From IMG/VR virus record IMGVR_UViG_3300023296_000994: a stretch of DNA of 64,000 bases, one strand, 5' to 3'. The notes under the pieces were generated by a model. The model had not been told where the DNA came from. It was given only the letters and a program-made list of their open reading frames with translations, and did not search any database. Of the stretch, positions 2,568 to 22,146 are shown one piece after another. The position numbers and the translations under genes are program-made. This DNA comes from a virus. How positions within the stretch are numbered: the stretch's first letter is position 1; each line of letters starts with the position of its first letter.

Positions 2568-3791
2568 TTATCGACCAACTTCACTTAAATATTTAGATTT
2601 CATTTCGTCCCATGAGATACCAACTGCATCAATGTAATACAAATGGTCTGGCTTAAGCCTTCCTTCTGTATGTAGCTTAGTATAACGTCTAATTGCTTTA
2701 GGTTTCCACCAATTATTAATGTAATCAATACCCTCTACAAACTTCTTTTTCATAACAAGTTCGTCTTCGGATATTTTTCCACATAAAAAGTCATTGCCAT
2801 TATCATATATAAATGCTCCGTAACAACCACGTTTGAACCCGTGCTGATACTTAGACTGTGATATTTTACATTCGGAAAATATTTTACTAATTATTTTCTG
2901 TTTGATTCCACTTACTGGGCCGCTGCGTGTATTGTCACCTTCTTCTATAGGGAGACCATCTTTACCACGTTCTTCTGTCACATTTATTTCATACCATTGA
3001 GTACGGTTTTCTTTTATCCATTGGTGCCACGGAGTATAAATTGAATCATCCGGCTTAATACTAATTTTCCCGGCGGATTCACCCAAAGTTTTGAAATGGG
3101 GAATAGCGTTATACTGTGAATGAATACCGTATAATGATGTTGTACCTACTGCTACAAGTGTCTGACCATACGATGATTTCCAATAATCCCTAACATCAGG
3201 GGTTGTTGTCATCGTTGCTATCAATTTTCCACCTAAGAAATTATAACCAAGTGGCTGTGTACATACAATGGTAGATGCTATACTTGTGTGGTTTAGTTTT
3301 CCGGCGGCAAATTTATCTTGTAAAGTCCACCCAATATATTTATCACGTACAGCAAGAGAAGTTATATCCGATGCCATTGATACTTGACCTAATAACTTAC
3401 CACTTACCCTATCCTTTATATTCAATTTGACATTTCGTCCTGGGTTAGGAGTCCAACTCATAGTATGAATCATACGGCGTATGTGGCTCCACTTAGTAGA
3501 TTCCTTTTCCGTTGTTACTATTTCAACGTAAGGGTCCAAGTTTTCTATTTCTCTTACCGTCAAATCATAATCATATATATCGGTGGGATTCCACTGATTA
3601 TCATATAGCTCTGCCAGTAGCGATTTATTTTTAATCACGGCTGGATCTTGAAGTTCAACCCATTTTTTATATAGGGTTTGTTCTTCCACAGTCATACTTG
3701 CCAACGTATCTAAGTTCTGAATTAAATTCTGCTTTTCTTTTGTAAAATCAAATTCATCATCAGGTACTTCGCTGTCCCAAAATGGATTCAT
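2568..3791 (-). CDS. DUF4338/DruA-like protein (putative GNAT-like fold), possibly DNA modification
   Basis: PGRN, RDKYIGW, QPLGYNFLGGKL, TTSLYG..SQYN motifs recalled from this family; sits within the replisome genes. Confidence 0.6.
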   Translation of the reverse strand: MNPFWDSEVPDDEFDFTKEKQNLIQNLDTLASMTVEEQTLYKKWVELQDPAVIKNKSLLAELYDNQWNPTDIYDYDLTVREIENLDPYVEIVTTEKESTKWSHIRRMIHTMSWTPNPGRNVKLNIKDRVSGKLLGQVSMASDITSLAVRDKYIGWTLQDKFAAGKLNHTSIASTIVCTQPLGYNFLGGKLIATMTTTPDVRDYWKSSYGQTLVAVGTTSLYGIHSQYNAIPHFKTLGESAGKISIKPDDSIYTPWHQWIKENRTQWYEINVTEERGKDGLPIEEGDNTRSGPVSGIKQKIISKIFSECKISQSKYQHGFKRGCYGAFIYDNGNDFLCGKISEDELVMKKKFVEGIDYINNWWKPKAIRRYTKLHTEGRLKPDHLYYIDAVGISWDEMKSKYLSEVGR

Positions 3792-4486
3792 TACGCTAAC
3801 TTGACCAAGTAATATTCAGATGTATAATCCGCCGTAGCGAATGTTAAATGACATAACCCTTTACTTGAAATCTTCATTGATGCACTTTCACTATTCTTAT
3901 TAGCAACAAGAATTGACTTTAAATAATCTGCTGAAAATTGAATGGGCTTCATATCGCCGGATGATGTACATTTAACTACCATTGATACACGATTGGTGTT
4001 CAGTGTGGAATATCCTAAGATAATTTCGCCTGAGTCTGCTGAATAGCTAAATGTAAATTTATCACTATCAGGAAGAGCTGCTTTAGATTTGATGAATCGA
4101 GTGATGAAATCAATATCAAGTTTAATGTCAGCTTCAAAATCGGGAATCTGCTTCATTTCTGGTACATCGGGAATAACTGCCATGTCCGATAAAACGTATG
4201 TTACTGCTGTATTACTATCAGACAACTTAATTGTACTATCAGAGTGTCTAACCTTAATGTCAGAATCAAGTACAGTTAACATCGATTTGAGTTGACTGGT
4301 TGTATATATACCAAATTCTCCAGCAGGAAAATCGGGTTCGTTTGATGTTACATTACCCAACAATGTTTTATCATCGGATATAAATGATACATACATTCCA
4401 GCGGAATCTGCTGAAATTTTAACAGATTCAACTTCACCTGATAGATTGTATCGGGTTATAAATCCGTCTAATTTAGATTTGTTCAT
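3791..4486 (-). CDS. Sliding clamp (T4 gp45-like)
   Basis: 231 aa; GEFGIY..SQL, ISSKGL..LTF....YTSEYYLV C-terminus; between polymerase and clamp loader. Confidence 0.85.
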   Translation of the reverse strand: MNKSKLDGFITRYNLSGEVESVKISADSAGMYVSFISDDKTLLGNVTSNEPDFPAGEFGIYTTSQLKSMLTVLDSDIKVRHSDSTIKLSDSNTAVTYVLSDMAVIPDVPEMKQIPDFEADIKLDIDFITRFIKSKAALPDSDKFTFSYSADSGEIILGYSTLNTNRVSMVVKCTSSGDMKPIQFSADYLKSILVANKNSESASMKISSKGLCHLTFATADYTSEYYLVKLA

Positions 4487-4556: not shown

Positions 4557-5461
4557 TTAAAATGAAAAGAATTGTGATGCGGTTTCCAAATTTTCATTTG
4601 GTAGTTCCCATCCAAGTGACGTATAGAATTGTTCCAACTTCTTACCGATTTCACTATTCCATATCTGATCATAATCAATGTATGTATTGATTATATTTAG
4701 GATTTCATCGGAATCTTTGTAGCCTGTGAAGGCAACTGATTCCAATCCAAGATTATTATGTAGTAAATATACCCACTTGATTTTATCACCGTCCTTAATC
4801 GGTTCATACTTAGTAGTAAGATTATAATGTGTAAGTAGTTGATTATGGGCTATACATGATTTGACGTGAGCAGGTGTACCTTTGGTAAACGCACCTAATA
4901 ATTGGTCTTTATAAGTGTATTTACTTATACCCTTTACACCTGAATTACGTCCCAATGATGTAATCGGTTGGTTAGATATATCTTTTCTGTATGCCAGAAT
5001 TTTGTTATCCACTGCCACCTTATTTTCAACTTTAAGTATGTCCATCAGTACCTCAGACATAATAGTTTTGAAGTATGGTGGAAATGATGACCTACGTACA
5101 TCTAGCCCCTTTACATCAAGTTTATCACAGTTAACCCCCTTATCATTAATAATCCACTGAGCATATCGTTTCTTTGCAACCCAGAATGCGCTCTTAGCAA
5201 TTGTTTCTTGTTTGATATTAAATCGATGTGATTCAATATTAAACATTCGAGTGGCCATAACATCATATGTCGAGTTAATATGATTTTGAATTTCACCTGC
5301 TACTGATAGAATGGCAGGTATCATTTGATCATCATTGTTTTCATCAATATCTGGATTACGTGTTTTTACAAGCGGCGTTGATTCGTAGAATACTGAGTCA
5401 GTTAAGTGTCCACGTAAATGTTATAATCTACGTGGACTTTTTCAATTTTTTTGATTTTCAT
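4557..5461 (-). CDS. Family-B DNA polymerase, C-terminal subunit (palm motif C + thumb); needs recoding at 5400-5407
   Basis: ATG 5461 gives MKIKKIEKVHVDYNIYVDT*; shifted frame from 5402 gives TDSVFYES...KKRYA...VKGLDVRRSS...IKDGDKIKWVYL; the ORF-track start (5324) omits the catalytic DTDS motif. Confidence 0.85.
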
Positions 5462-6126
5462 AAATAATAATAAATTCACACCCTAGATGGGTTGTTATTT
5501 CGTTTTGTCTTATTTTATCCTTTTCAATTCGATTAGTATGGAATGATTCGTAATATTCAATTACGATATTTTTTTCCTTACTATATCCATCAACCCAGTA
5601 GCCAAGTTCTTTAATATAAAATTCTCCGCCATTTTCGGCGTGTTGGAGGTCTACTATATCAAGTTCTTTTGCTTTGGCCTCAATGATGGAAATTGATGAT
5701 GGATTATAGTTTGGAGAAATACCATGCTTGGATATCAATTCGTCAATTCTCTTTAATCTTAGTTTCCTAACACTTTTGGGATTATCCATCGGATTCTTAC
5801 CAACCGAAGTCCAATACTTATATCGTATTTTCTTCATCGCGGCGGTTGCATTTTTCTTCCAAGTCGGGTGTTTATTTCTAGTTTCTATCATTGAATCAAT
5901 ACTATCCTTGCTATGTCGTTTTCCTTTAAATGGATTTTTATCACCACGAACATCAGCGTGATTCTTACTTAGACTTTCTTTATGTTTATCACTAAATAAT
6001 TTACCTGTCTTAGAACAACTCAAACATTTCTTATTTTCAGCTATAGCTTTTTCATGAAACCATTTAGTTTTAATTGTTATTTCGATGCCGCAAGTGGGAC
6101 AATTTCGTACATATTTTCATCATCAT
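5442..6126 (-). mobile_element. Free-standing homing endonuclease (Zn finger + NUMOD3-like repeats + Vsr-like/PD-(D/E)xK domain) inside the polB locus
   Basis: CPTC..CLSC (frame open from 6116), HKESLSKNH, KNPFKGKRHS, GYWVDGY...IVIEYYESFH; RBS GGAG and ATGs at 6120-6126 are one base out of frame. Confidence 0.75.
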
Positions 6127-6172
6127 ATCTCCTATAATAAGTATATGATTATTCAACTTTCTGTATGGAGTA

Positions 6173-8116
6173 CTAGACAACAATATCATCATCTTCCGTT
6201 AATTCACCAACTTGCTTCTTACTACCATCCATTAACGTAACAAATTCATTTACACCAAATATTAATTCTTTGCCATTTTCTAGTGTGAGTTTATGTGGAT
6301 TTATGTGTTCATTGTAGTATGCGTTGGCAATCTTTTCCGTAGTTTTAATAATGGTTTGACCACACTCTGTAACAGCTGCAGCATTATCAAGGTCATAAAA
6401 TCTGAACGTGGCAAGCCCAAGACAGCCATATAAACTATTAAGCATGATTTTTTGGGTATGCTGCCTTCTATCGTAGAATTTATACAAATCGGTGGCTCCG
6501 GCCTTACCGTGTGATTTCATTAACTTTGTATATTCTGTTCGTTTTTTAAACCAAACATCTAAGATTTCTGCAATGACACCAACTTTATCCTGTCTATACA
6601 ATACACCATTGGATGATACCGAATAGTTAGATTCTGATAATAGCTCTTGGAATTTAGCTTTGTTAATAGCAGGATAATAGTCGCCGTGACTATCTTCAAT
6701 AATGTATTCATCTATTTCATCGGATATATATCGTTCCGTAGTGAAATTATGAACCTTGCCCATCTTAGTTTCTGGACTAATATTTAGGCTCATAATAATA
6801 CTTGGATACAATGATGTTAAGTCCAAGTCATATACCCATTTATATAATCCGGTAATAGGTTCCTTTACATATGCTCCTACAAAATCAAGTGCCACCTTAT
6901 AATCAGTACCAGCTTCTTTTTCTAGTGGCTTTGATAATGTAAATGTTGATCCATCATATGAATCATACGATACAATAATATAGCTGGATGTAGATTTACT
7001 TATTTTTAATCGGCCTGTTCCAGGTACGTTTGTCAGTATGTTAGATTCCATATTAAGCTTCGTGGTTCCAACGGGATGCTTTCTACTTAATACTAATGAC
7101 AAACGGGGTGGTGAATTTGTTGCAATTCTATTATTCCGTCTAAGGAATGTTAATATAGCACCTTCCAGCCATTTAGATGAAAAAAGAAAATCTTCATATT
7201 GAGTGTGACCGGCATGAGTAATTGAACGAGCAAGGTCAATGAATTGTAGCTTACGGTCCATATCTACCACAAGTTCAACGTCTACCAAGTTATATTCTAC
7301 AAACGTTTCAATGTCATCTCTGAATAGTTCATCTAGGCTTCCAACGTATTCTATTTTACCCCTACCCAATACTTCCTTTGCAATAGTATCCAATCGATAA
7401 TTTGCTAGTTCACTATATGTGAAGTTTTTATATAGAGCAAGATAATCAAGGGATGATACACCTGCTATTAAATAACGGCCGCGTCTTTCATTCCAATCAA
7501 CTATACCAATCGGTGACAACCTATTAGCAACACCTTCCGAAAATACAGTCTTGATTCTGTTATAGAGATATGTAATATCAAAATAATCTATGTTCCACCC
7601 AGTTATAATGGTGGGATTTATTTGTTCCCATTTATTAAGGAATGCAAGTAGTAAGCTATCTTCATCTGGAAAAGATTGTACAATGGCTTTCTTAATCTTC
7701 TTATCTATTGATAAATCTGATATCACATATACATAATAATCATCTGTTGTAGAATCATGTAGCGCTATTGATGTGATTGCATTATCAGCATCAGTTAAGT
7801 CAGGTAACCCCGTTACCATTTCAACTTCAATATCAAACGTAACTACAGTATGGCCGGTGGAAATTTCATCACTGTCACCATACGTATCAATTAAGAAACG
7901 AATGATTGGATTTATATCGCTTTCGTGTAATTTACTAGTGGTATATTTATCCCATTCTCCAATTTTCCTTAATTTCTCCCCATAGATAGATTCAAATGCT
8001 CCATTAGCATCCGGTACATATGCATACTTATGGTATTTTTCTTGCTTGTAACCAAGCTCGTCATCCCAATAATGTATAGTATTGGTCTTCCTATCAAAGT
8101 GCACATTCTGATACAT
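6173..8116 (-). CDS. Family-B DNA polymerase, N-terminal subunit (exonuclease, motifs A and B)
   Basis: FDIEV (ExoI), GWNIDYFD (ExoII), YNLVD (ExoIII), DLTSLYPSII (motif A), KIMLNSLYG (motif B); ends before motif C with an intein-like tail. Confidence 0.95.
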   Translation of the reverse strand: MYQNVHFDRKTNTIHYWDDELGYKQEKYHKYAYVPDANGAFESIYGEKLRKIGEWDKYTTSKLHESDINPIIRFLIDTYGDSDEISTGHTVVTFDIEVEMVTGLPDLTDADNAITSIALHDSTTDDYYVYVISDLSIDKKIKKAIVQSFPDEDSLLLAFLNKWEQINPTIITGWNIDYFDITYLYNRIKTVFSEGVANRLSPIGIVDWNERRGRYLIAGVSSLDYLALYKNFTYSELANYRLDTIAKEVLGRGKIEYVGSLDELFRDDIETFVEYNLVDVELVVDMDRKLQFIDLARSITHAGHTQYEDFLFSSKWLEGAILTFLRRNNRIATNSPPRLSLVLSRKHPVGTTKLNMESNILTNVPGTGRLKISKSTSSYIIVSYDSYDGSTFTLSKPLEKEAGTDYKVALDFVGAYVKEPITGLYKWVYDLDLTSLYPSIIMSLNISPETKMGKVHNFTTERYISDEIDEYIIEDSHGDYYPAINKAKFQELLSESNYSVSSNGVLYRQDKVGVIAEILDVWFKKRTEYTKLMKSHGKAGATDLYKFYDRRQHTQKIMLNSLYGCLGLATFRFYDLDNAAAVTECGQTIIKTTEKIANAYYNEHINPHKLTLENGKELIFGVNEFVTLMDGSKKQVGELTEDDDIVV

Positions 8117-8406
8117 TAAACAGACATTGTTATTTCAGTGATGCGGTAGTTTCCCATATAGCTAAGTAAATCATGTGCATCATCTATCATAAATTTCATG
8201 TTTCTATCACCACCCAACCAATCCTTACGAATAAAATTGTCATATGATATGGGATTAGGTATATTGTACCCCATCGCTTTCGCGCGGTCTTTAATTAACC
8301 TAGCTGTCCGTGAACATCTACATACAATTACATCGGAAGTAGCTGCCGATTTACGTATCAAATGAGTTGTTTTTCCTGAGTTTCGTTTTCCTATATTTAT
8401 TTGCAT
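8116..8406 (-). CDS. Small P-loop NTPase-like protein
   Basis: GKRNSGKTT Walker A, FMIDD Walker B-like; 96 aa. Confidence 0.6.
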   Translation of the reverse strand: MQINIGKRNSGKTTHLIRKSAATSDVIVCRCSRTARLIKDRAKAMGYNIPNPISYDNFIRKDWLGGDRNMKFMIDDAHDLLSYMGNYRITEITMSV

Positions 8407-9536
8407 GTACTTAATTTTTTGTGTAAATTTTCAATCATTTTACCTTCGTTTAAAGATAAGTCATTTGCACGAGATATACAACTTAATTCCGATTTTTTTC
8501 TAAAATCATCATCATCTAAAACGGCGTCCAATAAACTAAACAGCTGTGTTTTCTTACTGAAAAACTGGCCGTCTGGGTCTATTTCATGATAACAATCCGA
8601 TTCTTGCCAAATCATAGGTGTGCCGTTCATCATACAATCAGTACCACTTACGGACCAGCCATAATTTGTCTGTCTCATTTGTATTCCAACCTTACACGTC
8701 TGTAATCTAGTGTAATATTCATGCTTTGGTACTTTTGTATTGTCTACCCATCCATGCGGAGGTGTACCATTCAATTGTGGAACCCACACTGTAAAGTCTT
8801 GTCGATGTGTTCTATATTCTTCCATTAGTTCCATGAACTTAGGATATCCTTTATATGCAGCGGCCCTATGATTGAATACAATTATATTTTCCGGATTGTT
8901 GCTAGCTGAAGTTACAATTTTTTCTTTGGGTAATCCTAAGTTCCAAACTGTAAGAATTCTATCCAATTTATCAATAAAGTCATCGTTGAATGTTTCCCTA
9001 GCTTCCGATAATACTCTGTTCTTTTGGTCTTGGGTATTTAAGTAGCACGTATCCATTTGAGACATACCAAGTAATTCAATTGGTAGCCACATCCACTTTG
9101 CTTTGCCAGCTCTACGGTCAATACCATTACAAGATTTCATTTCCCACCAATGGCAGTAACCAATTATCTTTGTGTCAATTGATTTTTTGTACCTACCTAC
9201 TTGCGGCCAATCTGGCAGATGAGAATAAATTACATCGTAGTCAACATCCCTTAATATAGCCATCAACTTATCAGACGGAAACGCGCGCTGGTTCATCATG
9301 TCACCAGGAATATCAATTTGATGTTGCTTTACATTTGGTAAATTTAACTTTTTACTAACGTTTCCCGTTGGCATTATTATATGCCAAAAGTATTCACCAT
9401 ACTGATTTAATCCTTTGATGTGGTTATGTATTACATCTACAAACGAATCCTTTTCTATATTGGATGAATTTGTAATATTAGGTATAACCAATACTTTGCG
9501 AGCTGATGCGTAATCTATACTATCCCAGAATTCCAT
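8397..9536 (-). CDS. GT-B fold glycosyltransferase (probably DNA-modifying)
   Basis: YDVIYSH, IIVFNHR...YKGY, WSVSGTDCMMNGTPMI (GT-B donor-binding helix equivalent); next to DNA polymerase. Confidence 0.75.
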   Translation of the reverse strand: MEFWDSIDYASARKVLVIPNITNSSNIEKDSFVDVIHNHIKGLNQYGEYFWHIIMPTGNVSKKLNLPNVKQHQIDIPGDMMNQRAFPSDKLMAILRDVDYDVIYSHLPDWPQVGRYKKSIDTKIIGYCHWWEMKSCNGIDRRAGKAKWMWLPIELLGMSQMDTCYLNTQDQKNRVLSEARETFNDDFIDKLDRILTVWNLGLPKEKIVTSASNNPENIIVFNHRAAAYKGYPKFMELMEEYRTHRQDFTVWVPQLNGTPPHGWVDNTKVPKHEYYTRLQTCKVGIQMRQTNYGWSVSGTDCMMNGTPMIWQESDCYHEIDPDGQFFSKKTQLFSLLDAVLDDDDFRKKSELSCISRANDLSLNEGKMIENLHKKLSTCK

Positions 9537-9543
9537 AAGTGTA

Positions 9544-9574
9544 CAATATACACATTTTAATTGACATTACCAAA
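9544..9574 (-). promoter_or_regulatory. Putative promoter TTTGG-N19-TATATTG upstream of glycosyltransferase/polB
   Basis: Exact motif and spacing; only a few nt from the ATG. Confidence 0.65.
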
Positions 9575-10358
9575 AATTTAACGAACTTTTTTCATACGAT
9601 GTATAATGGTGGTGTATTTCATTCATAAACACATCACTATTTTTAGGATAATCCTTTTCAGGATGTTTAAGTAATTGCTTAAGATTCTTTTTGGACCGGG
9701 GATTACCTATTAACTGAATATATCTATGCTTGGACGCTTCTATACGTCTCCAAAATTCAGTTATATTTTGCTTACCAATTTCGCGTCTCAGATGGTCCAC
9801 GTTACTAGATCCCCACTTAGAAAATACAGTTCTACTGTGAATCCACTTATACGGATTTTTTTGTAGTGACAATTCATAATTGGGCATTAATGCCAAATCT
9901 GTATTGGTTCCCTGGTATATCCAATTTGTAGCCTGATATATCCTACCTAAATGAGCTTGGCTGGCATCCGCATAGGATATCAGCGCTTTAATATCAGGGT
10001 CATTTTCCTTAATCCACTTGAATGTTTTACCAAGTGCATATGATTCTATATTTGACCCGTATCCATCATGTATATACAGTCGGGTCAATTCCAACACAGA
10101 ATCTATCGCCAGTGTGTCTGAGACGCTCGCTGCCGCTGATCGACCAACAGGATTACCGTAGATAGCGCAGCCAATTAATACATCGTCTCCGAACGTATCA
10201 GAGCTACTATCGACGTAATATATACCAATAGCGTACTTACATGAAGACCATGAATGTGTGTAATGATATTTTACAATCATTTTTTTGGCTACCACAGCAT
10301 TTATTTTTTTAATAAACACTTTTGATGTATCACAGTAATGTTTTCCTTCTTCTTTCAT
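9567..10358 (-). CDS. Mom-like GNAT DNA-modification protein, paralog 1
   Basis: IVKYHY, VLELTRL, ISYAD....HLGRIYQATNWIYQG, KHRY. Confidence 0.75.
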   Translation of the reverse strand: MKEEGKHYCDTSKVFIKKINAVVAKKMIVKYHYTHSWSSCKYAIGIYYVDSSSDTFGDDVLIGCAIYGNPVGRSAAASVSDTLAIDSVLELTRLYIHDGYGSNIESYALGKTFKWIKENDPDIKALISYADASQAHLGRIYQATNWIYQGTNTDLALMPNYELSLQKNPYKWIHSRTVFSKWGSSNVDHLRREIGKQNITEFWRRIEASKHRYIQLIGNPRSKKNLKQLLKHPEKDYPKNSDVFMNEIHHHYTSYEKSSLNFW

Positions 10359-10945
10359 GATATATCGTATGTAAATATGTGCTTTGGTTTTGTATCAATT
10401 AACACAACACCTTCATCTTTTTCTTTATATCTTCTATTGATTTCGACGCCATACGGTCTATCTAACATTGACAATGTACGAACATGAAATTTCTTTCCGT
10501 CTACCAGTAATGATTTGCCAGTAGAAGTCAATCCCAAATATTTGAAATTTGATGCTCTATAAATTACACCTGTGTGGCCTTGTTCGCCGTCTGCATATGA
10601 TATGACAAATTTCCAATTTGAATTTTTCTTTAACCACTTTAACGTCCGACTTACAAAAAATGATTCGGCGTTTTTAGGAGTGTCATCTATACAGCATAAC
10701 CTACGTAGTTCTAAAACTGCCATCGGATTATCTGGATAATATTTTGCTCCTGCTGCTGCACCAGCCGGCCTAGTGTAAACACAGACACCGACAATTTCGG
10801 GAATATTAAATTTTCCAGGGCGTAGTAAGCAGAACGTATGTTTGTGTTGAATATTAACGTAATCGGAATAATGCCAACACCTCATAAATGTACGAATCGA
10901 TTTATTAAACGAAGTGTGTTCTACCCAATATGATTGTAATGCCAT
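10355..10945 (-). CDS. Mom-like GNAT DNA-modification protein, paralog 2
   Basis: WHYS, VLELRRLC, NAESFFV, ISYADGEQGHTGVIYRASNFKYLG. Confidence 0.75.
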   Translation of the reverse strand: MALQSYWVEHTSFNKSIRTFMRCWHYSDYVNIQHKHTFCLLRPGKFNIPEIVGVCVYTRPAGAAAGAKYYPDNPMAVLELRRLCCIDDTPKNAESFFVSRTLKWLKKNSNWKFVISYADGEQGHTGVIYRASNFKYLGLTSTGKSLLVDGKKFHVRTLSMLDRPYGVEINRRYKEKDEGVVLIDTKPKHIFTYDIS

Positions 10946-10946
10946 T

Positions 10947-11612
10947 TTAAAAAAACTTGTTTATATACGATTCACGTACAATATTATCTCCGGCATCATA
11001 TCTACTATTTTGCCCCTTTGGATACGGTAACACATCATATTTTTCCATTAATTCTTTTCTTAATTTCTTTTTTTGATGCTTATTTCCCGTCACCTGAAAG
11101 TATCTATGTTTGCCTTCTTGTTCTTTGAATGTAATTGTATATCCCATACCAATCAGCGCGGGTATAGATGATGTACCGTATCTGGCAAATATTGTCCTAC
11201 GGTGAGTTTCTTCACCATTGACATATATTATCTTTTCTTTTGATGACATACCGGTATACATCCAATTAGTTGCTTGGTATATATATCCGTGATGACCCCA
11301 ATTCTGATCAGCATACGATACAACATGCGGGTCTTTAATTAGATTCAGGCATCCGGCTAAAAAGAACGAGGTAATGTTTTTTTGATTTAATTCGTTTGTA
11401 ACCAGCCTACTTAATTCGTATGGTGAATCTTCTAAATCAAATCTAGCGATGGCTGGAGAGAAAACACAAACTCCTTCAATGTGATTATTTATAAAAAGAC
11501 CGAAAGATTTCGATATAGTTGGCATTCTTTTTAGATAATGTTTATCCAAAAGCCAATCAGTACATACCGATTGTTTTATGCTAACTATATTAACGTTCTT
11601 AGTATCTATCAT
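10947..11612 (-). CDS. Mom-like GNAT DNA-modification protein, paralog 3
   Basis: KHYLKRMP, YELSRL, VSYADQNWGHHGYIYQATNWMYTG, KHRY, LPYPKG. Confidence 0.8.
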   Translation of the reverse strand: MIDTKNVNIVSIKQSVCTDWLLDKHYLKRMPTISKSFGLFINNHIEGVCVFSPAIARFDLEDSPYELSRLVTNELNQKNITSFFLAGCLNLIKDPHVVSYADQNWGHHGYIYQATNWMYTGMSSKEKIIYVNGEETHRRTIFARYGTSSIPALIGMGYTITFKEQEGKHRYFQVTGNKHQKKKLRKELMEKYDVLPYPKGQNSRYDAGDNIVRESYINKFF

Positions 11613-11614
11613 TC

Positions 11615-13471
11615 TTAAATTATTTCACACGAACCACCTGCACAGGCTAGTTCACCTGTAAGATCAGTATTATCTTCCGATTCAATTATCTTACTTACAT
11701 CGATTTCATGTAGGTTTTTAGACAACGATTCATATTCTTCTTTGGTAATATCCTGGAAAGGGGCTTGGACATAAGTATGATTTGAATAGGGTAGTACAGA
11801 CAACCCGTTGTAATGATTTCTATTATTCCACATCCAATCACCAACTAAATCCCATTCATCATCCTTGACTGATATGGTAGCTGATATATTATGTGTGTTG
11901 TTTCCATTTCTATGACCGGGATATATCCATTCTGTAGATAGTTTCTTTATTCTATCCAATAAATCAAATGTAGATTCAGTACGAATTATGGCGCCGAATG
12001 GAGCCTTCTGTGGTACTTCAATCACCGCTGTATCATGTGGCCGGAAATATTCATCCTTTACTAATTCGGGATGATTTTTTAATAGATAGGAATAAATAGC
12101 TTCATTCTTACCCACTCTAAGTCTACGGAGATAATAGTCATTGTGCCATGCGTGAGCTCCAGATGATGTACCAAGAGTCAATGAAGTTGTACCTGCTGGC
12201 TTACCACATGTGGTTCTAGCAGCTTTATTAATACCAATTAATTTAGCTACCCTTTCGTTTTCATCATTTACAATTTTAGCTGCTTCGGTCATATCATATC
12301 CCAAAACAATACCACTTGCAATACCTGTCATACTAACTCCAATAAGTGCATCTTTTTCAGTAGTACGTTGCCATACAGGTCTAAGATAATGAAAATCAGT
12401 ATAGGCCGCCTGTAGTGTTGCTATGAAGGATGCTGCTCTAACCCTATTATTATAATCTTCCTGTGATTCTATGTTAGAAGCATTTACCTCAACTAGATTA
12501 CAAAACTGATATGGTCTAAGTGCAATTTCACAGCAGGGATTAGTGCCCCAATCTTTATCATTTGATAGGTAGATTCCTGGTTCACCTGCGCCGGATAATT
12601 CAATACGTTTCCATAAATCAAAAAAGAATTCTTTACTGATTCTATGTCGCATCAATACCGCTGAATTATTAGCTCTACCACGTTGCGGATTGTTTTCCCA
12701 CCATGTACCACTTTTTGCTGATATCATATCATCATCATCGGCAGAAAATAATGCAATAAGCGCTGCTCTACGGATACCGCCGGCCAATACAGCGTCAGCT
12801 ATATGACATACAATATCATAAACTTCAATTGGAGATAACTTATCACCGTTGTTTTTATTTGATAAGATACCTCCAATTTTTACTAAACACTCTTTTAATG
12901 GTTGGGGGCCCGGAGCCTTTCCACCTGATGTTATCAACAATGAGCCTTTTGGTCTAATGTCTGAAAAATCAAATTTAATCTGGCTACCACCAAATAAATA
13001 ACTTTTCATTAAAACCTTAACTGCATCAGCCCAACCCTGAATTGAGTCATCGATTAAAAATCGTCTGGTTCTATTTGTATTTGGTCGCCTAATTTCAGGA
13101 AGAGATGCAACATGATGCTTTTGTACTGAAAAGCCTACGCCTGACCCACCCAGAAGTAGAAACATAATTTCACTAAATGAACGCCAGTCATCTATGGGTA
13201 GATATGCACAGTTATATAATCGATTGGGACTTATTTCAATTGGCTTCCCAGCAAACTGCATGGACCGCATTGAGGGTAAAATCTTTTTATCATAAACATA
13301 TGTATATGCGTGCTCAATTTCATCTGTCAACTGTGGATATTTTTTTAAATGCATACCCTTATTTCGGTCAACAAGTTCGTACCAAGTTTCCCTTCTTTTC
13401 AATTCGGGGATGTATTTGGCGTACTTCATGTGCACCGTAATTTCGCTAAGTATTTTGTTGGATATATCCAT
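11615..13471 (-). CDS. nrdJ: Class II (adenosylcobalamin-dependent) ribonucleotide reductase
   Basis: PSMRS..FAG, NCAY, GGIRRAA, TNPCCEI, KPAGT, C-terminal ACAGGSCEI; no beta subunit gene nearby. Confidence 0.92.
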   Translation of the reverse strand: MDISNKILSEITVHMKYAKYIPELKRRETWYELVDRNKGMHLKKYPQLTDEIEHAYTYVYDKKILPSMRSMQFAGKPIEISPNRLYNCAYLPIDDWRSFSEIMFLLLGGSGVGFSVQKHHVASLPEIRRPNTNRTRRFLIDDSIQGWADAVKVLMKSYLFGGSQIKFDFSDIRPKGSLLITSGGKAPGPQPLKECLVKIGGILSNKNNGDKLSPIEVYDIVCHIADAVLAGGIRRAALIALFSADDDDMISAKSGTWWENNPQRGRANNSAVLMRHRISKEFFFDLWKRIELSGAGEPGIYLSNDKDWGTNPCCEIALRPYQFCNLVEVNASNIESQEDYNNRVRAASFIATLQAAYTDFHYLRPVWQRTTEKDALIGVSMTGIASGIVLGYDMTEAAKIVNDENERVAKLIGINKAARTTCGKPAGTTSLTLGTSSGAHAWHNDYYLRRLRVGKNEAIYSYLLKNHPELVKDEYFRPHDTAVIEVPQKAPFGAIIRTESTFDLLDRIKKLSTEWIYPGHRNGNNTHNISATISVKDDEWDLVGDWMWNNRNHYNGLSVLPYSNHTYVQAPFQDITKEEYESLSKNLHEIDVSKIIESEDNTDLTGELACAGGSCEII

Positions 13472-13519: not shown

Positions 13520-14875
13520 TTAGGCTCCGCCAGTCAATTCTTTGAACTTATTTTTCAAATAAGCTCTGGAATGATCGTCGCCATTGGCCATCGATGTTGC
13601 CATCTTAGTACCCTGGCTAGAGTTTCCGTCGAACACGTCAATTTTTCCATTAGATGCATTCATTTGGGTTGGCAATGTAATACCATCAGGTCCGAATCTG
13701 TTTTTGATAATGTGAATTCTACCAGTACCAGCTATCTTATCATCCAACTTTCTACTTAGCGACATTACAACATCAGCGGTCATAATCTTACTGTAGTCTT
13801 CTGATATCTTGTCGGCACCGATCACATCATCTTCAAGTGACGATCTGTTAGCTTGCGAGGCGGTCCACAGTGGAACTTCATATTCACCGGCCAACCCTCT
13901 TAGATGTTCGTATATACTACCGATTTCATGTCGAACTTCTTTACTTGTCAATGTACTTCGAAGCAAGTCTGCATAATCCACTATAATTAAATCAGGCTTC
14001 ACATCTTGAATCATACACTTTTCGATGTGACTTGATATAGTATTCGTTGTAGCTGATTTGGTATTGTAGTGTTTGATAATTAAATTACCGTCGAGTGTAG
14101 ATAATCTACGTTTAACATCATCTAAATTATACTTTAAGTTTTGGTTTGGTATTCCTGTTAGGATTGAATCATAACGTAACCCAACATATGCTGCATTTAA
14201 TTCAAGAGTATAATGTAAAACAGTATAGCCGGCCTTAATCGCATTTGCGCCGATGTTGGCCAATAACCAAGATTTACCAATACCAGCGGGGGCCACTACC
14301 ACACCTAATTCACCCTTACCTAAGCCACCATCAATCAGGTCATCGATTACATCCCATCCCGTTTCCTTACATGCTCGTACTGATTCTTCATATCGTTCAT
14401 CAATATTAACCATATAGTCATGGCCTATGTCACGGTCACTTCCAGCTTTCATAGCTGCATCAATCATTTCTTTAATAGAATCGTACTTACCATTCTTAAG
14501 TAAAGATACGGATTCCATAATAGCAGCTTTAAGCTTTTGATTCTTACAAAATTCTATACTTTTTTCCTTGACAAATTCTAAGTCAGCTGATTCTGTGTAT
14601 TTCCATACATCTTTTAAATGGTCAATGACCACTTCCTTTAATACTTTATCTTCTATTTCCGCTATGGCAACTTTCATTACTTCCAACGTAACATTTGATT
14701 TATACTTTATAAAATATGCACGAATTGCATCAATTATAAATTGATTGGCATCGCTTTCAAAGTATTCTGTTTCTAATATATCAATTATTTGATTTAAAAA
14801 AACCCTATCTTTGAATAGGGCTGAAAGTAGTTTTATTTGGAATACATATCCAAATTCACTTAATTTGTCGGTCAT
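13520..14875 (-). CDS. Replicative DnaB-like helicase (T4 gp41-like)
   Basis: APAGIGKS, YTLEL, IIVDYADL, WTASQANR, IKNRFG; probable start MTDKL at 14875. Confidence 0.92.
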   Translation of the reverse strand: MTDKLSEFGYVFQIKLLSALFKDRVFLNQIIDILETEYFESDANQFIIDAIRAYFIKYKSNVTLEVMKVAIAEIEDKVLKEVVIDHLKDVWKYTESADLEFVKEKSIEFCKNQKLKAAIMESVSLLKNGKYDSIKEMIDAAMKAGSDRDIGHDYMVNIDERYEESVRACKETGWDVIDDLIDGGLGKGELGVVVAPAGIGKSWLLANIGANAIKAGYTVLHYTLELNAAYVGLRYDSILTGIPNQNLKYNLDDVKRRLSTLDGNLIIKHYNTKSATTNTISSHIEKCMIQDVKPDLIIVDYADLLRSTLTSKEVRHEIGSIYEHLRGLAGEYEVPLWTASQANRSSLEDDVIGADKISEDYSKIMTADVVMSLSRKLDDKIAGTGRIHIIKNRFGPDGITLPTQMNASNGKIDVFDGNSSQGTKMATSMANGDDHSRAYLKNKFKELTGGA

Positions 14876-14879
14876 GGTA

Positions 14880-15932
14880 TTATGAATGTGTTTTTGATGC
14901 CATGGCATCTAAGGTGAAAAATACTTCACGTAACCACAAGTCTGGGTTTTTAATTGATCCGTTCATCATATCCTCAAGTATCATTTTGTTAATCATCATC
15001 TTGTTTAACCTGGGAATTGGATTAATAACTTGGTTTGATATTGAAGTTTTTGCATGCCCTGAAATATCTACTTCTTTAAGCTGCATTAATATATAGTTAC
15101 GTTCTACTATGTCGAATGAATTGCGGACAGCAGCAAGTAACTTAAGCGTAGATTCACTGTCAGTTACAAATTTCTTAATGTCATCCATTTCAACCTTATC
15201 GGATTCGAATAACATTGGTATTATTTTTTGTAGTGTCTTCGGCCCAGCGCCTTTAATACCACCAATACCATCTGATGTATCACCTATGAAAGTTCTATAT
15301 TCAAGGAAGTTATGAGCTTCAACTCCAAATTCTTCTTTAATAGTAGAATCAAAGTAATATTTTTTCTTTGTCGGACTCCAAACAGCTACTCTCTTATCTA
15401 CCAATTGAAGAAAATCCTTGTCCGTAGACATTATGAAACATTGTGCTTCGGTGTATATCTGCTGAGAAATATATGCAATAGAATCATCGGCTTCAATGTT
15501 ATCTATACATAAAACCGTCAATGGCATTTTCTCCAGATATTCCAACAAACGAACCATTTGCTGTTGCATAGAGATTTCTTCGTCTGCAACTGACAATGAT
15601 ACTTGGCGAAACGGAGTTACTTTGTTTTTTCTATTTTCTTTATATCCGCTATATAACTTTTTTCGTCTAACAGAGCCGCCCGCGCCATCGAAACAAATAA
15701 TTACTCTGGTGGGTTTGATATTCTTTATGGCGTATCCAATTGACAATAAGAACCCAGCCATACCACCAATATGAACACCATTTTCATTTGTTGCTGGATT
15801 TGCTGCGAATGCACGAATAAAAGTATTGAGGCCGTCCACTAACAAGACCCTAGAATTAGGGTCATTGTTAAGTGTGGATTGGCCTTCTTTTATACCGTCT
15901 AGTATTTTAAAATATCTAGATGACTTACTCAT
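14880..15932 (-). CDS. 5'-3' exonuclease / flap endonuclease (T4 RNase H-like)
   Basis: LLVDGLN, FDG, YKENR, EADD, STDKDFLQ, GDTSDGIGGIKGAGPKT. Confidence 0.93.
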   Translation of the reverse strand: MSKSSRYFKILDGIKEGQSTLNNDPNSRVLLVDGLNTFIRAFAANPATNENGVHIGGMAGFLLSIGYAIKNIKPTRVIICFDGAGGSVRRKKLYSGYKENRKNKVTPFRQVSLSVADEEISMQQQMVRLLEYLEKMPLTVLCIDNIEADDSIAYISQQIYTEAQCFIMSTDKDFLQLVDKRVAVWSPTKKKYYFDSTIKEEFGVEAHNFLEYRTFIGDTSDGIGGIKGAGPKTLQKIIPMLFESDKVEMDDIKKFVTDSESTLKLLAAVRNSFDIVERNYILMQLKEVDISGHAKTSISNQVINPIPRLNKMMINKMILEDMMNGSIKNPDLWLREVFFTLDAMASKTHS

Positions 15933-21117: not shown

Positions 21118-22146
21118 TCAATTGTCTGCCTTCATATAGCCATAATGATTTCCTACACTACATCGCGATGGGAATTGCAATTTTGACTTAATAAGTTCTT
21201 TGATATAAATATCAGTCTTTTTCGTATCAAAGAGAAATGAATCATACGTATACAATACTAATTTGGATTCTAACGGAGATAATATATCAAATAATTCAGT
21301 CAAAATCAACACATTCATTTCGGTTTCATATGCCTGGATGAGATAGTTGAATAGTTTTCGTGGATTCATGTCATCAAAATTATCACCACTTAATCTACGT
21401 TCTGCAATCGGTGTTTCAATATACCCGTTCGATATGTACGATACCCATAGACGTTCAATATATTCATCGATTAACTTAAAAAAGGTTACGTTACTATATT
21501 CATCGGCAATTCCACCATATAACATTGTAAATGATATTGATTTGGATTGCTTATATTCATCATCAGTTATATCGTCCTTATCATAGTATAACTTAGCCAT
21601 GTGTGTATGAAAACTATCATCGGGTGCATCATATTCAATAAGAGTGGATATCAAACGTAAGTGATATGCATCGTAATCAAATTCAATAAGCTTTCCACCT
21701 TCAAACCTGGATTTAAATCTAGTTCGTGACCCATCATCTTTATTTAAAGCGGCGTAATTTACCCCTCCGTTGGAATTGGATGGGCGGCCGGTTTTTGTAT
21801 ATATGTTATAATGAGTATGCTCATATCCATCTGGAGTATATAATCCAGAGTCTTCTATCTTTCTAAAATATGGAATTAACTTATTTTTGTAAAATAACCA
21901 CGGCGTTGAAGTAGTAAGATTGTCATCAGCTATGGTAGAATAATAGCTCTGTAGTAGTGTGAGACGCTCCCTGTGCTTACATAAAGGTATAATCATGTCT
22001 ACATCGGTTCGCTTCCAATACAACCGTTTGTAGAACGAATGAGCATCGGTTTCAATAGTATCAACGTCAAAGGCACTATTATATTTCAGATAATGAGTTA
22101 ACTGTATATCGTCACATATAGATCGTATTTCGCTGATGACTCCCAT
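21118..22146 (-). CDS. Minimal family-A DNA polymerase-like protein (no exonuclease)
   Basis: TKTGRPSN, motif A EFDYDAYHLRL, motif B KQSKSISFTMLYG, FNYLIQ, motif C YTYDSFLFD. Confidence 0.8.
   Translation of the reverse strand: MGVISEIRSICDDIQLTHYLKYNSAFDVDTIETDAHSFYKRLYWKRTDVDMIIPLCKHRERLTLLQSYYSTIADDNLTTSTPWLFYKNKLIPYFRKIEDSGLYTPDGYEHTHYNIYTKTGRPSNSNGGVNYAALNKDDGSRTRFKSRFEGGKLIEFDYDAYHLRLISTLIEYDAPDDSFHTHMAKLYYDKDDITDDEYKQSKSISFTMLYGGIADEYSNVTFFKLIDEYIERLWVSYISNGYIETPIAERRLSGDNFDDMNPRKLFNYLIQAYETEMNVLILTELFDILSPLESKLVLYTYDSFLFDTKKTDIYIKELIKSKLQFPSRCSVGNHYGYMKADN

What the first reader, a model, noticed from the sequence alone, without database searches (positions are those of the whole stretch)
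8397..11612. DNA hypermodification cluster: three tandem Mom-like GNATs plus a glycosyltransferase between RNR and PolB
Seen: three adjacent divergent paralogs share HY, ELxRL and SYAD-x4-HxGxIY(Q/R)A(T/S)N(W/F)xYxG, followed by a GT-B enzyme, a tiny P-loop protein and polB. Established: phage Mu Mom is a single GNAT-fold enzyme that modifies adenine against restriction, and T-even phages use GT-B enzymes to glucosylate DNA. No base hydroxymethylase is visible in this window. Inference: a multi-step or multi-specificity modification pathway (for example acylation of a sugar-modified base, or several sequence contexts) that may produce an undescribed base.
Basis: partly seen in the sequence, partly recalled or inferred. 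Interest (0 to 1): 0.78.

Follow-up and report, generated by a model that had tools for sequence, protein, structure and literature searches.

The report
Triple Mom array plus GNAT–glycosyltransferase pair
An uncultured marine T4-like phage carries three divergent copies of the Mom DNA-modifying enzyme, and its neighbouring glycosyltransferase is most tightly paired not with them but with a fourth, Mom-like (DruA/DUF4338) enzyme, which suggests two separate and still untested DNA-modification systems.

Summary
Window 9567-11612 (- strand) encodes three adjacent paralogs, 32-34% identical. All three are clear Pfam Mom members and keep six of seven Mu Mom catalytic residues. Window 8397-9536 encodes a confident GT-B (GT4-like) fold.

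No cultured Mom-bearing phage record shows more than one Mom match (0 of 280 and 0 of 270, two queries). This uncultured lineage carries 1-3 copies from at least five old subfamilies, at variable positions. That pattern fits independent enzymes with different specificities, not steps of one pathway.

The glycosyltransferase family is small and found only on phage-like contigs. Its most consistent neighbour is a DruA/DUF4338 gene, here at 2568-3791:
- The pair is adjacent in five rearranged gene orders of this lineage.
- DruA lies directly upstream of the glycosyltransferase in 49 of 58 loci of a second, 35-39%-identical lineage, where no Mom gene lies nearby.
- The pair is also adjacent in a third context.

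The DruA-like model's best structural match is Mu Mom. No hydroxymethylase, TET enzyme or C5-methyltransferase was found in large relatives.

Most likely there are two systems: several Mom enzymes marking DNA, and a separate GNAT-plus-glycosyltransferase module. All chemistry is inferred. First-stage notes on this same stretch had already linked the DruA-like gene to it.

The parts
10947..11612 (-). MomA: Mom-family GNAT of a rare subtype; ends in ...NKFF
   Evidence: PF25680 E 1.7e-25. Keeps H58, Y59, R111, S124, D149 and Y159 in Mu numbering. In the tree it groups only with L039.
10355..10945 (-). MomB: Mom-family GNAT, short form lacking the basic C-terminal tail
   Evidence: PF25680 E 6e-32, covering profile positions 13-150 of 202. 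The catalytic residues are kept. It sits on a long branch with L012/L015/L020, where the ortholog lies between PolB and the clamp gene.
9567..10358 (-). MomC: Mom-family GNAT of the commonest subtype in this lineage, with a variable linker and a conserved C-terminal (F/Y)W tail
   Evidence: PF25680 E 8.3e-44. All 62 subtype-C sequences end in (F/Y)W. W263 is invariant in alignment A5.
8397..9536 (-). GT-B (GT4-like) glycosyltransferase, conserved throughout the lineage
   Evidence: AF2 pLDDT 91. Foldseek matches to MshA, BshA, PimA and a phage HY126 GT. It is 66-80% identical in 80 related loci. H223, R224, D300 and E318 are nearly invariant.
2568..3791 (-). DruA/DUF4338-like GNAT, the likely functional partner of the GT
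   Evidence: PF14236 E 2.5e-14. The model's best match among 48,161 chains is Mu Mom 8bv8, Z 9.2. It lies next to GT homologs in other lineages.
8116..8406 (-). 96-aa P-loop protein; accessory and probably not part of the system
   Evidence: phrog_1828, function unknown. No homolog in 80 related loci, where the GT abuts PolB.
3791..4486 (-). Sliding clamp (context; candidate docking platform)
   Evidence: phrog_223 DNA polymerase processivity factor, E 4.6e-9. Conserved between PolB and the DruA-like gene.
4557..8116 (-). PolB in two ORFs (6173-8116 and 4557-5324) separated by a NUMOD3 endonuclease gene (5442-6023); context
   Evidence: Pfam DNA_pol_B, exonuclease and NUMOD3 matches. PolB ends in ...QFFSF.
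11615..13471 (-). Class II (B12-type) ribonucleotide reductase-like gene, the upstream border of the array
   Evidence: TIGR02505 E 3.4e-80, below its cut-off; Pfam Ribonuc_red_lgC.

Best explanation
The locus holds two related but separable modules inside the replication operon of an uncultured marine T4-like phage. Module 1 is MomA, MomB and MomC. They are three anciently diverged Mom-family GNATs. By homology with Mu Mom, each most likely transfers an amino-acyl group from a charged tRNA to a base in double-stranded phage DNA (adenine N6 in Mu), which blunts host restriction. They act in parallel. They probably differ in DNA sequence context, because the putative DNA-binding insertion is their least conserved part, and possibly in amino-acid donor. 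They are not successive steps of one pathway. Module 2 is the GT-B glycosyltransferase together with the DruA/DUF4338-like, Mom-like GNAT at 2568-3791. This is a conserved two-gene unit. The GNAT probably performs the first (acyl or amino-acyl) transfer and the GT then elaborates the product with a sugar. Shown here: the family and fold assignments, the residue conservation and the phyletic and synteny patterns. Inferred: DNA as the substrate, tRNA as the donor, the order of steps and the anti-restriction role.
For: Mom membership and retention of H58, Y59, R111, S124, D149 and Y159. No cultured Mom-bearing phage record has a second match: 280 records gave 280 places and 270 records gave 270 places. 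At least five Mom subfamilies occur in the lineage, and the window's A+B+C combination is unique in the sample. All 10 large related records checked have 1-3 Mom genes, lying anywhere from next to the GT to more than 10 kb away. Between subtypes, the region aligned to the Mu 175-209 insertion is 6-25% identical against 29-48% in the core. The GT has a confident GT-B fold and is more conserved (66-80%) than PolB (45-68%). The GT was present in 34 of 35 loci that were fetched by their DruA gene and had enough upstream flank. The GT is adjacent to DruA in five rearranged gene orders: L028, L039, L068, L075-80 and L078. In a second GT lineage, DruA lies directly upstream in 49 of 58 loci, often with overlapping stop and start, and 0 of 80 loci have a Mom hit. 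A third context has GT next to DruA beside a terminase gene. The DruA-like model's top structural match is Mu Mom at Z 9.2, the only match with Z of 8 or more, followed by FemA/FemX. A cyanophage homolog was independently judged Mom-like (PMC12801897). DruA-like genes occur without this GT in pelagiphages and cyanophages, as expected if the GNAT performs the first step. Large relatives have a canonical ThyA and no match to the Tet_JBP or C5-methyltransferase models.
Against: There is no biochemical evidence for any of these proteins. R151, essential in Mu Mom, is N, E or S here, and W48, needed for Mu dimerisation, is not kept. Substrate or donor may therefore differ. MomB lacks the C-terminal tail. 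In the commonest gene order a Mom gene lies closer to the GT (0.03-3 kb) than DruA does (3.3 kb), and every large lineage-1 record has Mom, GT and DruA. Co-occurrence within this lineage therefore cannot separate the partners. One lineage-2 fragment has a Mom gene 18 kb from its GT. Lineages 1 and 2 may share the pairing by descent. The GT lacks the first Glu of the GT4 EX7E motif. No acceptor hydroxyl on DNA is known for it. DruA versus Mom gave no sequence-profile signal, and the DruA model is only moderately confident (pLDDT 73).
Confidence: 0.5

Rival explanations
1. One reading: the three Mom paralogs and the GT form one multi-step hypermodification pathway. For example, a Mom installs a serine- or threonine-derived group and the GT glycosylates it, or the Moms acylate a sugar placed by the GT.
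For: MomC and the GT are only 30 nt apart here and adjacent in several relatives (L009, L012, L023, L039). Every large lineage-1 record carries both Mom and the GT. The genes are co-oriented and tightly packed.
Against: 280 cultured phage records have a Mom and none has this GT family. In L055-type and L075-80-type genomes the Mom genes lie more than 10 kb from the GT while DruA stays beside it or in its usual place. None of the 80 lineage-2 GT loci has a Mom within 8 kb, whereas 49 of 58 have DruA. One Mom is enough in a 100%-complete 266-kb relative.
Confidence: 0.15
2. Some or all of these enzymes act on substrates other than DNA. The Mom or DruA-like GNATs might acylate tRNA, proteins or small molecules. 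The GT might glycosylate virion or host proteins, or a metabolite.
For: GNAT and GT4-like folds are highly versatile. The closest PDB matches of the GT act on small molecules (MshA, BshA). Its best named viral structural neighbours are actinophage GTs of unproven role. From my own knowledge, some mycobacteriophage GTs glycosylate virion proteins. R151 and W48 of Mu Mom are not kept. No acceptor hydroxyl base pathway was found.
Against: The only characterised Mom enzyme modifies DNA (PMC13219725). All these genes sit among PolB, clamp, clamp loader, dUTPase and RNR genes in two lineages. Distant GT homologs lie next to polymerases, topoisomerase and a Dam-type methylase. The Moms are basic (pI 9.1-9.4).
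Confidence: 0.2
3. The three Moms are redundant copies or subunits of one hetero-oligomeric enzyme that makes a single mark. Mu Mom is a dimer.
For: Mu Mom works as a tight dimer (PMC13219725). The paralogs are translationally coupled. MomB is truncated and could be a non-catalytic partner.
Against: All three keep the full catalytic set, including S124. Subtypes occur singly (MomC-type alone in a complete genome) and in varied combinations. A fixed hetero-oligomer would be expected to be inherited as a set.
Confidence: 0.1

Closest known systems
Bacteriophage Mu Mom (PF25680; PDB 8bv8), the Gly-tRNA(Gly)-dependent N6-carbamoylmethyl-adenine DNA modifier
   Same: Same Pfam family and GNAT fold with the extra insertion. 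H58, Y59, R111, S124, D149 and Y159 are conserved. Phage-encoded.
   Different: There are three divergent copies in tandem instead of one. R151 is replaced by N, E or S, and a His stands where Mu has R154. W48 is not kept. The genes sit in the replication operon rather than under a late, Com-regulated mom locus. MomC carries a conserved aromatic C-terminal tail. Donor, base and motif are unknown.
DruA (DUF4338, PF14236) of type I Druantia defence
   Same: The window protein at 2568-3791 passes the Pfam cut-off. Its predicted GNAT core is nearest to Mom.
   Different: It is phage-encoded with no DruB-E partners. It is paired with a GT-B gene and embedded beside PolB, the clamp and dUTPase. The function of the family is not established.
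Phage DNA glycosylation systems: T4 alpha/beta-glucosyltransferases on 5hmC, TET-plus-GT systems, and 5-hydroxycytosine arabinosylation (PMC13326640)
   Same: A GT-B fold enzyme encoded by a T4-like phage among DNA-metabolism genes. The phage HY126 GT is among the structural matches.
   Different: Neither the window nor large relatives show a hydroxymethylase, 5hoC synthase, TET or C5-methyltransferase. The partner is a GNAT instead. There is no sequence similarity to any cultured-phage GT. The first Glu of the EX7E motif is missing.

Membership tests
Mom (PF25680) | Profile match above Pfam's gathering score | tested here: met
   90.3, 111.4 and 150.1 bits against a cut-off of 27.1. The profile of the three matches PDB 8bv8 at E 2e-19.
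Mom (PF25680) | Catalytic or essential residues H58, Y59, R111, S124, D149 and Y159 of Mu Mom | tested here: met
   Invariant in MomA, MomB, MomC and five other subtypes aligned with Mu Mom.
Mom (PF25680) | R151 (essential in Mu) and W48 (dimer interface) | tested here: not met
   R151 is N, E or S and W48 is S, K or V. An invariant His stands where Mu has R154.
Mom (PF25680) | HTH-like insertion (Mu 175-209) and basic C-terminal tail | tested here: inconclusive
   An aligned segment is present in all three but is only 11-20% identical to Mu or to each other. MomB lacks the tail after the last strand.
Mom (PF25680) | Transfers glycine from Gly-tRNA(Gly) to adenine N6 in dsDNA | not testable with these tools
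   This needs expression and LC-MS or in vitro assays as in PMC13219725.
GT-B glycosyltransferases (GT4-like) | Two Rossmann-like domains with an inter-domain cleft | tested here: met
   pLDDT 91 and pTM 0.89. Foldseek E about 1e-12 and TM 0.67-0.70 to MshA, BshA and GlgM.
GT-B glycosyltransferases (GT4-like) | Pfam GT4/GT1 profile above the gathering score | tested here: not met
   The window protein scores 19.4 bits against 28.5 for Glyco_transf_4. 17 of 38 family members hit Glycos_transf_1 at E of 0.01 or better.
GT-B glycosyltransferases (GT4-like) | EX7E motif and phosphate-binding Arg/Lys | tested here: inconclusive
   R224 is kept in 35 of 38 sequences, K229 in 24 of 38 and E318 in 35 of 38. 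The second Glu is Asp (D300, 37 of 38). The first Glu position (292) is not conserved.
DruA / DUF4338 (PF14236) | Profile match above the gathering score | tested here: met
   53.6 bits against 27, E 2.5e-14.
Druantia type I defence system | DruA together with DruB-D and the DruE helicase | tested here: not met
   The neighbours are the clamp, PolB, dUTPase and clamp loader, with no Dru partners. It is therefore a family member but not a Druantia system.
Hydroxymethyl- or hydroxy-pyrimidine glycosylation systems | A thymidylate-synthase-like hydroxymethylase or hydroxylase, or a TET plus C5-methyltransferase, supplying the acceptor OH | tested here: not met
   None in the window genes scanned. 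Large relatives have a ThyA that passes the thymidylate-synthase equivalog cut-off (330.3 against 325). They have no C5-methyltransferase or Tet_JBP hit, although the Tet control matched in no genome at all. The rest of this phage's genome was not available.

The most novel reading that the evidence does not exclude
This abundant uncultured marine myophage lineage makes several undescribed DNA bases. Different Mom paralogs would draw different amino acids from charged tRNAs and place them at different motifs. The DruA-like GNAT plus GT pair would build a glycosylated, amino-acid-derived purine adduct: a sugar added to a hydroxyl supplied by a Ser/Thr-type 'momylation', with no hydroxymethyl-pyrimidine involved. 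The conserved C-terminal aromatic tail would tether MomC to the sliding clamp, coupling modification to replication. If so, DruA of Druantia would also be a DNA-marking enzyme.
Probability: 0.15. Interest if true: 0.88.

Novelty: new variant of a known kind. Interest (0 to 1): 0.62.

Why it matters
Mom was shown only in 2026 to be a tRNA-dependent DNA amino-acyl transferase, and only glycine on adenine is known. A natural set of at least five divergent Mom subtypes, up to three per genome, is a ready panel for asking whether the family writes other amino acids or other motifs onto DNA.

The conserved DruA-like GNAT and GT pair offers the first concrete functional hypothesis for the DUF4338/DruA family, which also sits in Druantia defence systems. 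It would also be a route to glycosylated DNA that needs no hydroxymethylated pyrimidine.

The phages concerned are widespread in marine and other aquatic viromes: more than 500 IMG/VR stretches were found for each gene family. Any such modification would affect host-range biology and the sequencing and cloning of environmental viral DNA.

Tried and rejected
(1) My first inference, that the GT occurs in genomes without Mom, came from the ±10 kb loci. I withdrew it because whole-record searches found 1-3 Mom genes in all 10 large relatives.

(2) Profile-profile comparison of the DruA-like protein with the Mom paralogs gave no signal, with probability 0.5-1.7%. The link rests on structure alone. 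Foldseek on the same model gave only weak acetyltransferase hits.

(3) Complex prediction of the sliding clamp (A4) with MomC (A5) returned 'no answer' with a score of 0.02. This is neither support nor evidence against the clamp-docking idea.

(4) tblastn of the GT and of a distant GT homolog against 50,697 cultured phage records found no match. Megablast of the locus also found none.

(5) Rfam found no group I/II intron or other RNA family in the split polB region.

(6) The promoter and terminator scans were no better than shuffled sequence.

(7) A profile of the clamp against PDB sequences gave nothing. The clamp assignment rests on phrog_223 and a weak NCBIfam hit.

(8) The Tet_JBP search matched nothing, not even in the control genomes, so that negative result is weak.

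(9) The 231-aa gene was considered as a module member. It was rejected because it is the sliding clamp.
Full report
**What is there**

The window is one coding strand of an uncultured phage. All long ORFs are on the - strand, and no whole genome is held for it.

Around the finding, in order of transcription:
- DnaB-like helicase (13520-14908)
- class II RNR-like gene (11615-13471)
- three Mom-family ORFs (10947-11612, 10355-10945, 9567-10358)
- a 379-aa ORF (8397-9536)
- a 96-aa Walker-A protein (8116-8406)
- PolB N-part (6173-8116), a NUMOD3 endonuclease gene (5442-6023) and PolB C-part (4557-5324)
- a 231-aa sliding clamp (3791-4486)
- a DruA/DUF4338-like gene (2568-3791)
- dUTPase, then the clamp-loader subunits

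The nearest cultured PolB is Microcystis phage Mel-JY01 at 42%, followed by T4-like cyanophages. The phage is therefore a deep T4-like lineage with no cultured representative.

**The three paralogs**

All three pass Pfam Mom (PF25680) far above the cut-off, and phrog_1384 as well.

Their profile finds the Mu Mom crystal structure 8bv8 at E 2e-19. Aligned with full-length Mu Mom, they keep H58, Y59, R111, S124, D149 and Y159. These residues were shown or proposed to be catalytic in the 2026 study, which established Gly-tRNA(Gly) as Mom's donor (PMC13219725).

There are three departures from Mu Mom:
- R151, essential in Mu, is N, E or S, and an invariant His stands where Mu has R154.
- W48, at the Mu dimer interface, is not kept.
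- MomB lacks the basic C-terminal tail.

**How unusual is a Mom array**

Two tblastn searches of 50,697 cultured phage records found 280 and 270 Mom-bearing records, each with exactly one match.

In 80 related IMG/VR loci the Mom genes fall into at least five old subfamilies. Subtype C is the commonest, subtype D usually sits beside it, and E, A and B are rare. The window has C plus the two rare types and lacks D, a combination not seen elsewhere in the sample.

Whole-record searches of 10 large relatives gave 1 Mom in three records (including a 100%-complete 266-kb genome), 2 in five records and 3 in two records. The genes lie anywhere from next to the GT to more than 10 kb away.

Between subtypes, the segment aligned to Mu's DNA-facing insertion (175-209) is 6-25% identical, against 29-48% for the core. 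This pattern fits independently acting enzymes with diverged recognition. It does not fit obligatory successive steps.

**The glycosyltransferase**

With a 38-sequence alignment the protein folds at pLDDT 91 into a GT-B fold. The best PDB matches are GT4-type enzymes (MshA, BshA, GlgM, PimA, a phage HY126 GT) at E about 1e-12.

Sequence profiles support this only weakly for the window protein itself. Across the family, 17 of 38 members hit Glycos_transf_1.

R224, D300 and E318 are nearly invariant, but the first Glu of the EX7E motif is not conserved.

The family is small: 147 clusters at 50% identity among 1.8 billion representatives. It is absent from cultured phages. Within this lineage it is very conserved, at 66-80% against 45-68% for PolB.

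**Which gene is the GT's partner**

In the commonest order, Mom(s), a variable slot, GT, PolB, clamp and DruA, a Mom lies closer to the GT than DruA does, so this order alone is ambiguous. Other evidence favours DruA:
- In five rearranged orders (L028/29, L039/41, L068, L075-80, L078) the GT lies beside DruA. In L075-80 and in the L055 type the Moms are more than 10 kb from the GT.
- Of the loci fetched through DruA with enough upstream flank, 34 of 35 contain the GT.
- A second GT lineage (about 450 aa, 35-39% identical) has a DruA gene directly upstream in 49 of 58 loci with at least 1.3 kb of upstream sequence. Stop and start often overlap. No Mom hit occurs in any of its 80 loci. The setting is again beside PolB, RecA and DnaB.
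- A third context has GT next to DruA beside a terminase gene.

One fragment of the second lineage does carry a Mom gene 18 kb from its GT. A role for Mom therefore cannot be excluded.

**What the DruA-like protein is**

It passes PF14236. Its model is of moderate confidence (pLDDT 73). Aligned against 48,161 PDB representatives, it matches Mu Mom best (Z 9.2, 171 residues). This is the only match at Z of 8 or more. AHL synthases and the aminoacyl-tRNA transferases FemA and FemX follow.

Sequence profiles show no link to Mom. Homologs occur without this GT in Pelagibacter and cyanobacterial myophages. One cyanophage homolog was independently described as structurally Mom-like (PMC12801897).

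**Where would a sugar go**

No hydroxymethylase lies among the window genes scanned. Four of five large relatives encode a ThyA that passes a thymidylate-synthase equivalog cut-off. No C5-methyltransferase or Tet_JBP match was found, although the Tet control was uninformative. The known routes to an acceptor hydroxyl on DNA are therefore not evident. This is why I propose that the GNAT product is the acceptor. That step is inference only.

**Other observations**

- All 62 subtype-C Moms end in (F/Y)W after a variable linker. PolB ends in QFFSF and MomA in NKFF.
- An earlier scan note suggested that these tails dock on the clamp. The tail conservation is real, but the complex prediction gave no verdict.
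- The slot upstream of the GT is hypervariable in relatives. It holds a GmrSD-like nuclease, a GT2 gene plus an amine oxidase, or a MazG-like gene.
- A GIY-YIG/ParB-like ORF abuts the GT in both GT lineages.
- The 96-aa P-loop gene is unique to this phage.

**Verdict**

There are probably two systems: a multi-specificity Mom array, and a separate module of a DruA-like GNAT plus a glycosyltransferase. Both are new variants of known kinds and neither has been tested experimentally.

Noticed in passing
window 9567-10358 (C-terminus); alignment A5: All 62 subtype-C Mom orthologs end in x(F/Y)W-COOH after a roughly 25-residue variable linker. PolB in the same phages ends in QFFSF/QFFGF and MomA in NKFF. 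This may be a clamp- or replisome-docking tail.
   Followed up: partly
window 4557-8116: PolB is in two ORFs separated by a free-standing NUMOD3 endonuclease gene (5442-6023). Most relatives have a contiguous PolB, and a few (L034, L044, L068) also carry the endonuclease. Rfam finds no intron.
   Followed up: partly
L046:2835-4184 and L222:6706-7962: A 420-450-aa ORF with GIY-YIG-like and ParB-like motifs lies directly upstream of the GT in 28 lineage-1 loci and 18 lineage-2 loci. The two forms are 38% identical (E 2e-95). It is probably a homing endonuclease that targets the GT neighbourhood, or a further module member. It is absent from the window.
   Followed up: partly
L058:3521-5218 (also the L050, L051, L055, L057 group): A phage-encoded GmrSD-like protein (DUF262 N-domain plus HNH) sits directly upstream of the GT in a sub-lineage. 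GmrSD enzymes cut glucosylated DNA, so this is an odd neighbour for a putative DNA glycosyltransferase.
   Followed up: no
L028:11142-13506: Two tandem DruA-like paralogs follow the GT. Pelagibacter phage HTVC008M also shows two DruA-like places, so the DruA-like family duplicates as Mom does.
   Followed up: no
L015:4333-6715: A GT2-family glycosyltransferase and a flavin amine oxidase occupy the variable slot between the helicase and the Mom genes in some relatives.
   Followed up: no
window 21118-22146: A 342-aa minimal family-A polymerase-like ORF (weak DNA_pol_A hit, below the cut-off) sits alongside the PolB replisome.
   Followed up: no
window 8116-8406: A 96-aa Walker-A protein (phrog_1828) is inserted between the GT and PolB. 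It has no homolog in 80 related loci.
   Followed up: partly
L088:1495-2598: ThyA of the relatives is 367 aa, longer than the models it matches, and aligns to them in two or three stretches. This suggests an insertion in an otherwise canonical thymidylate synthase.
   Followed up: no
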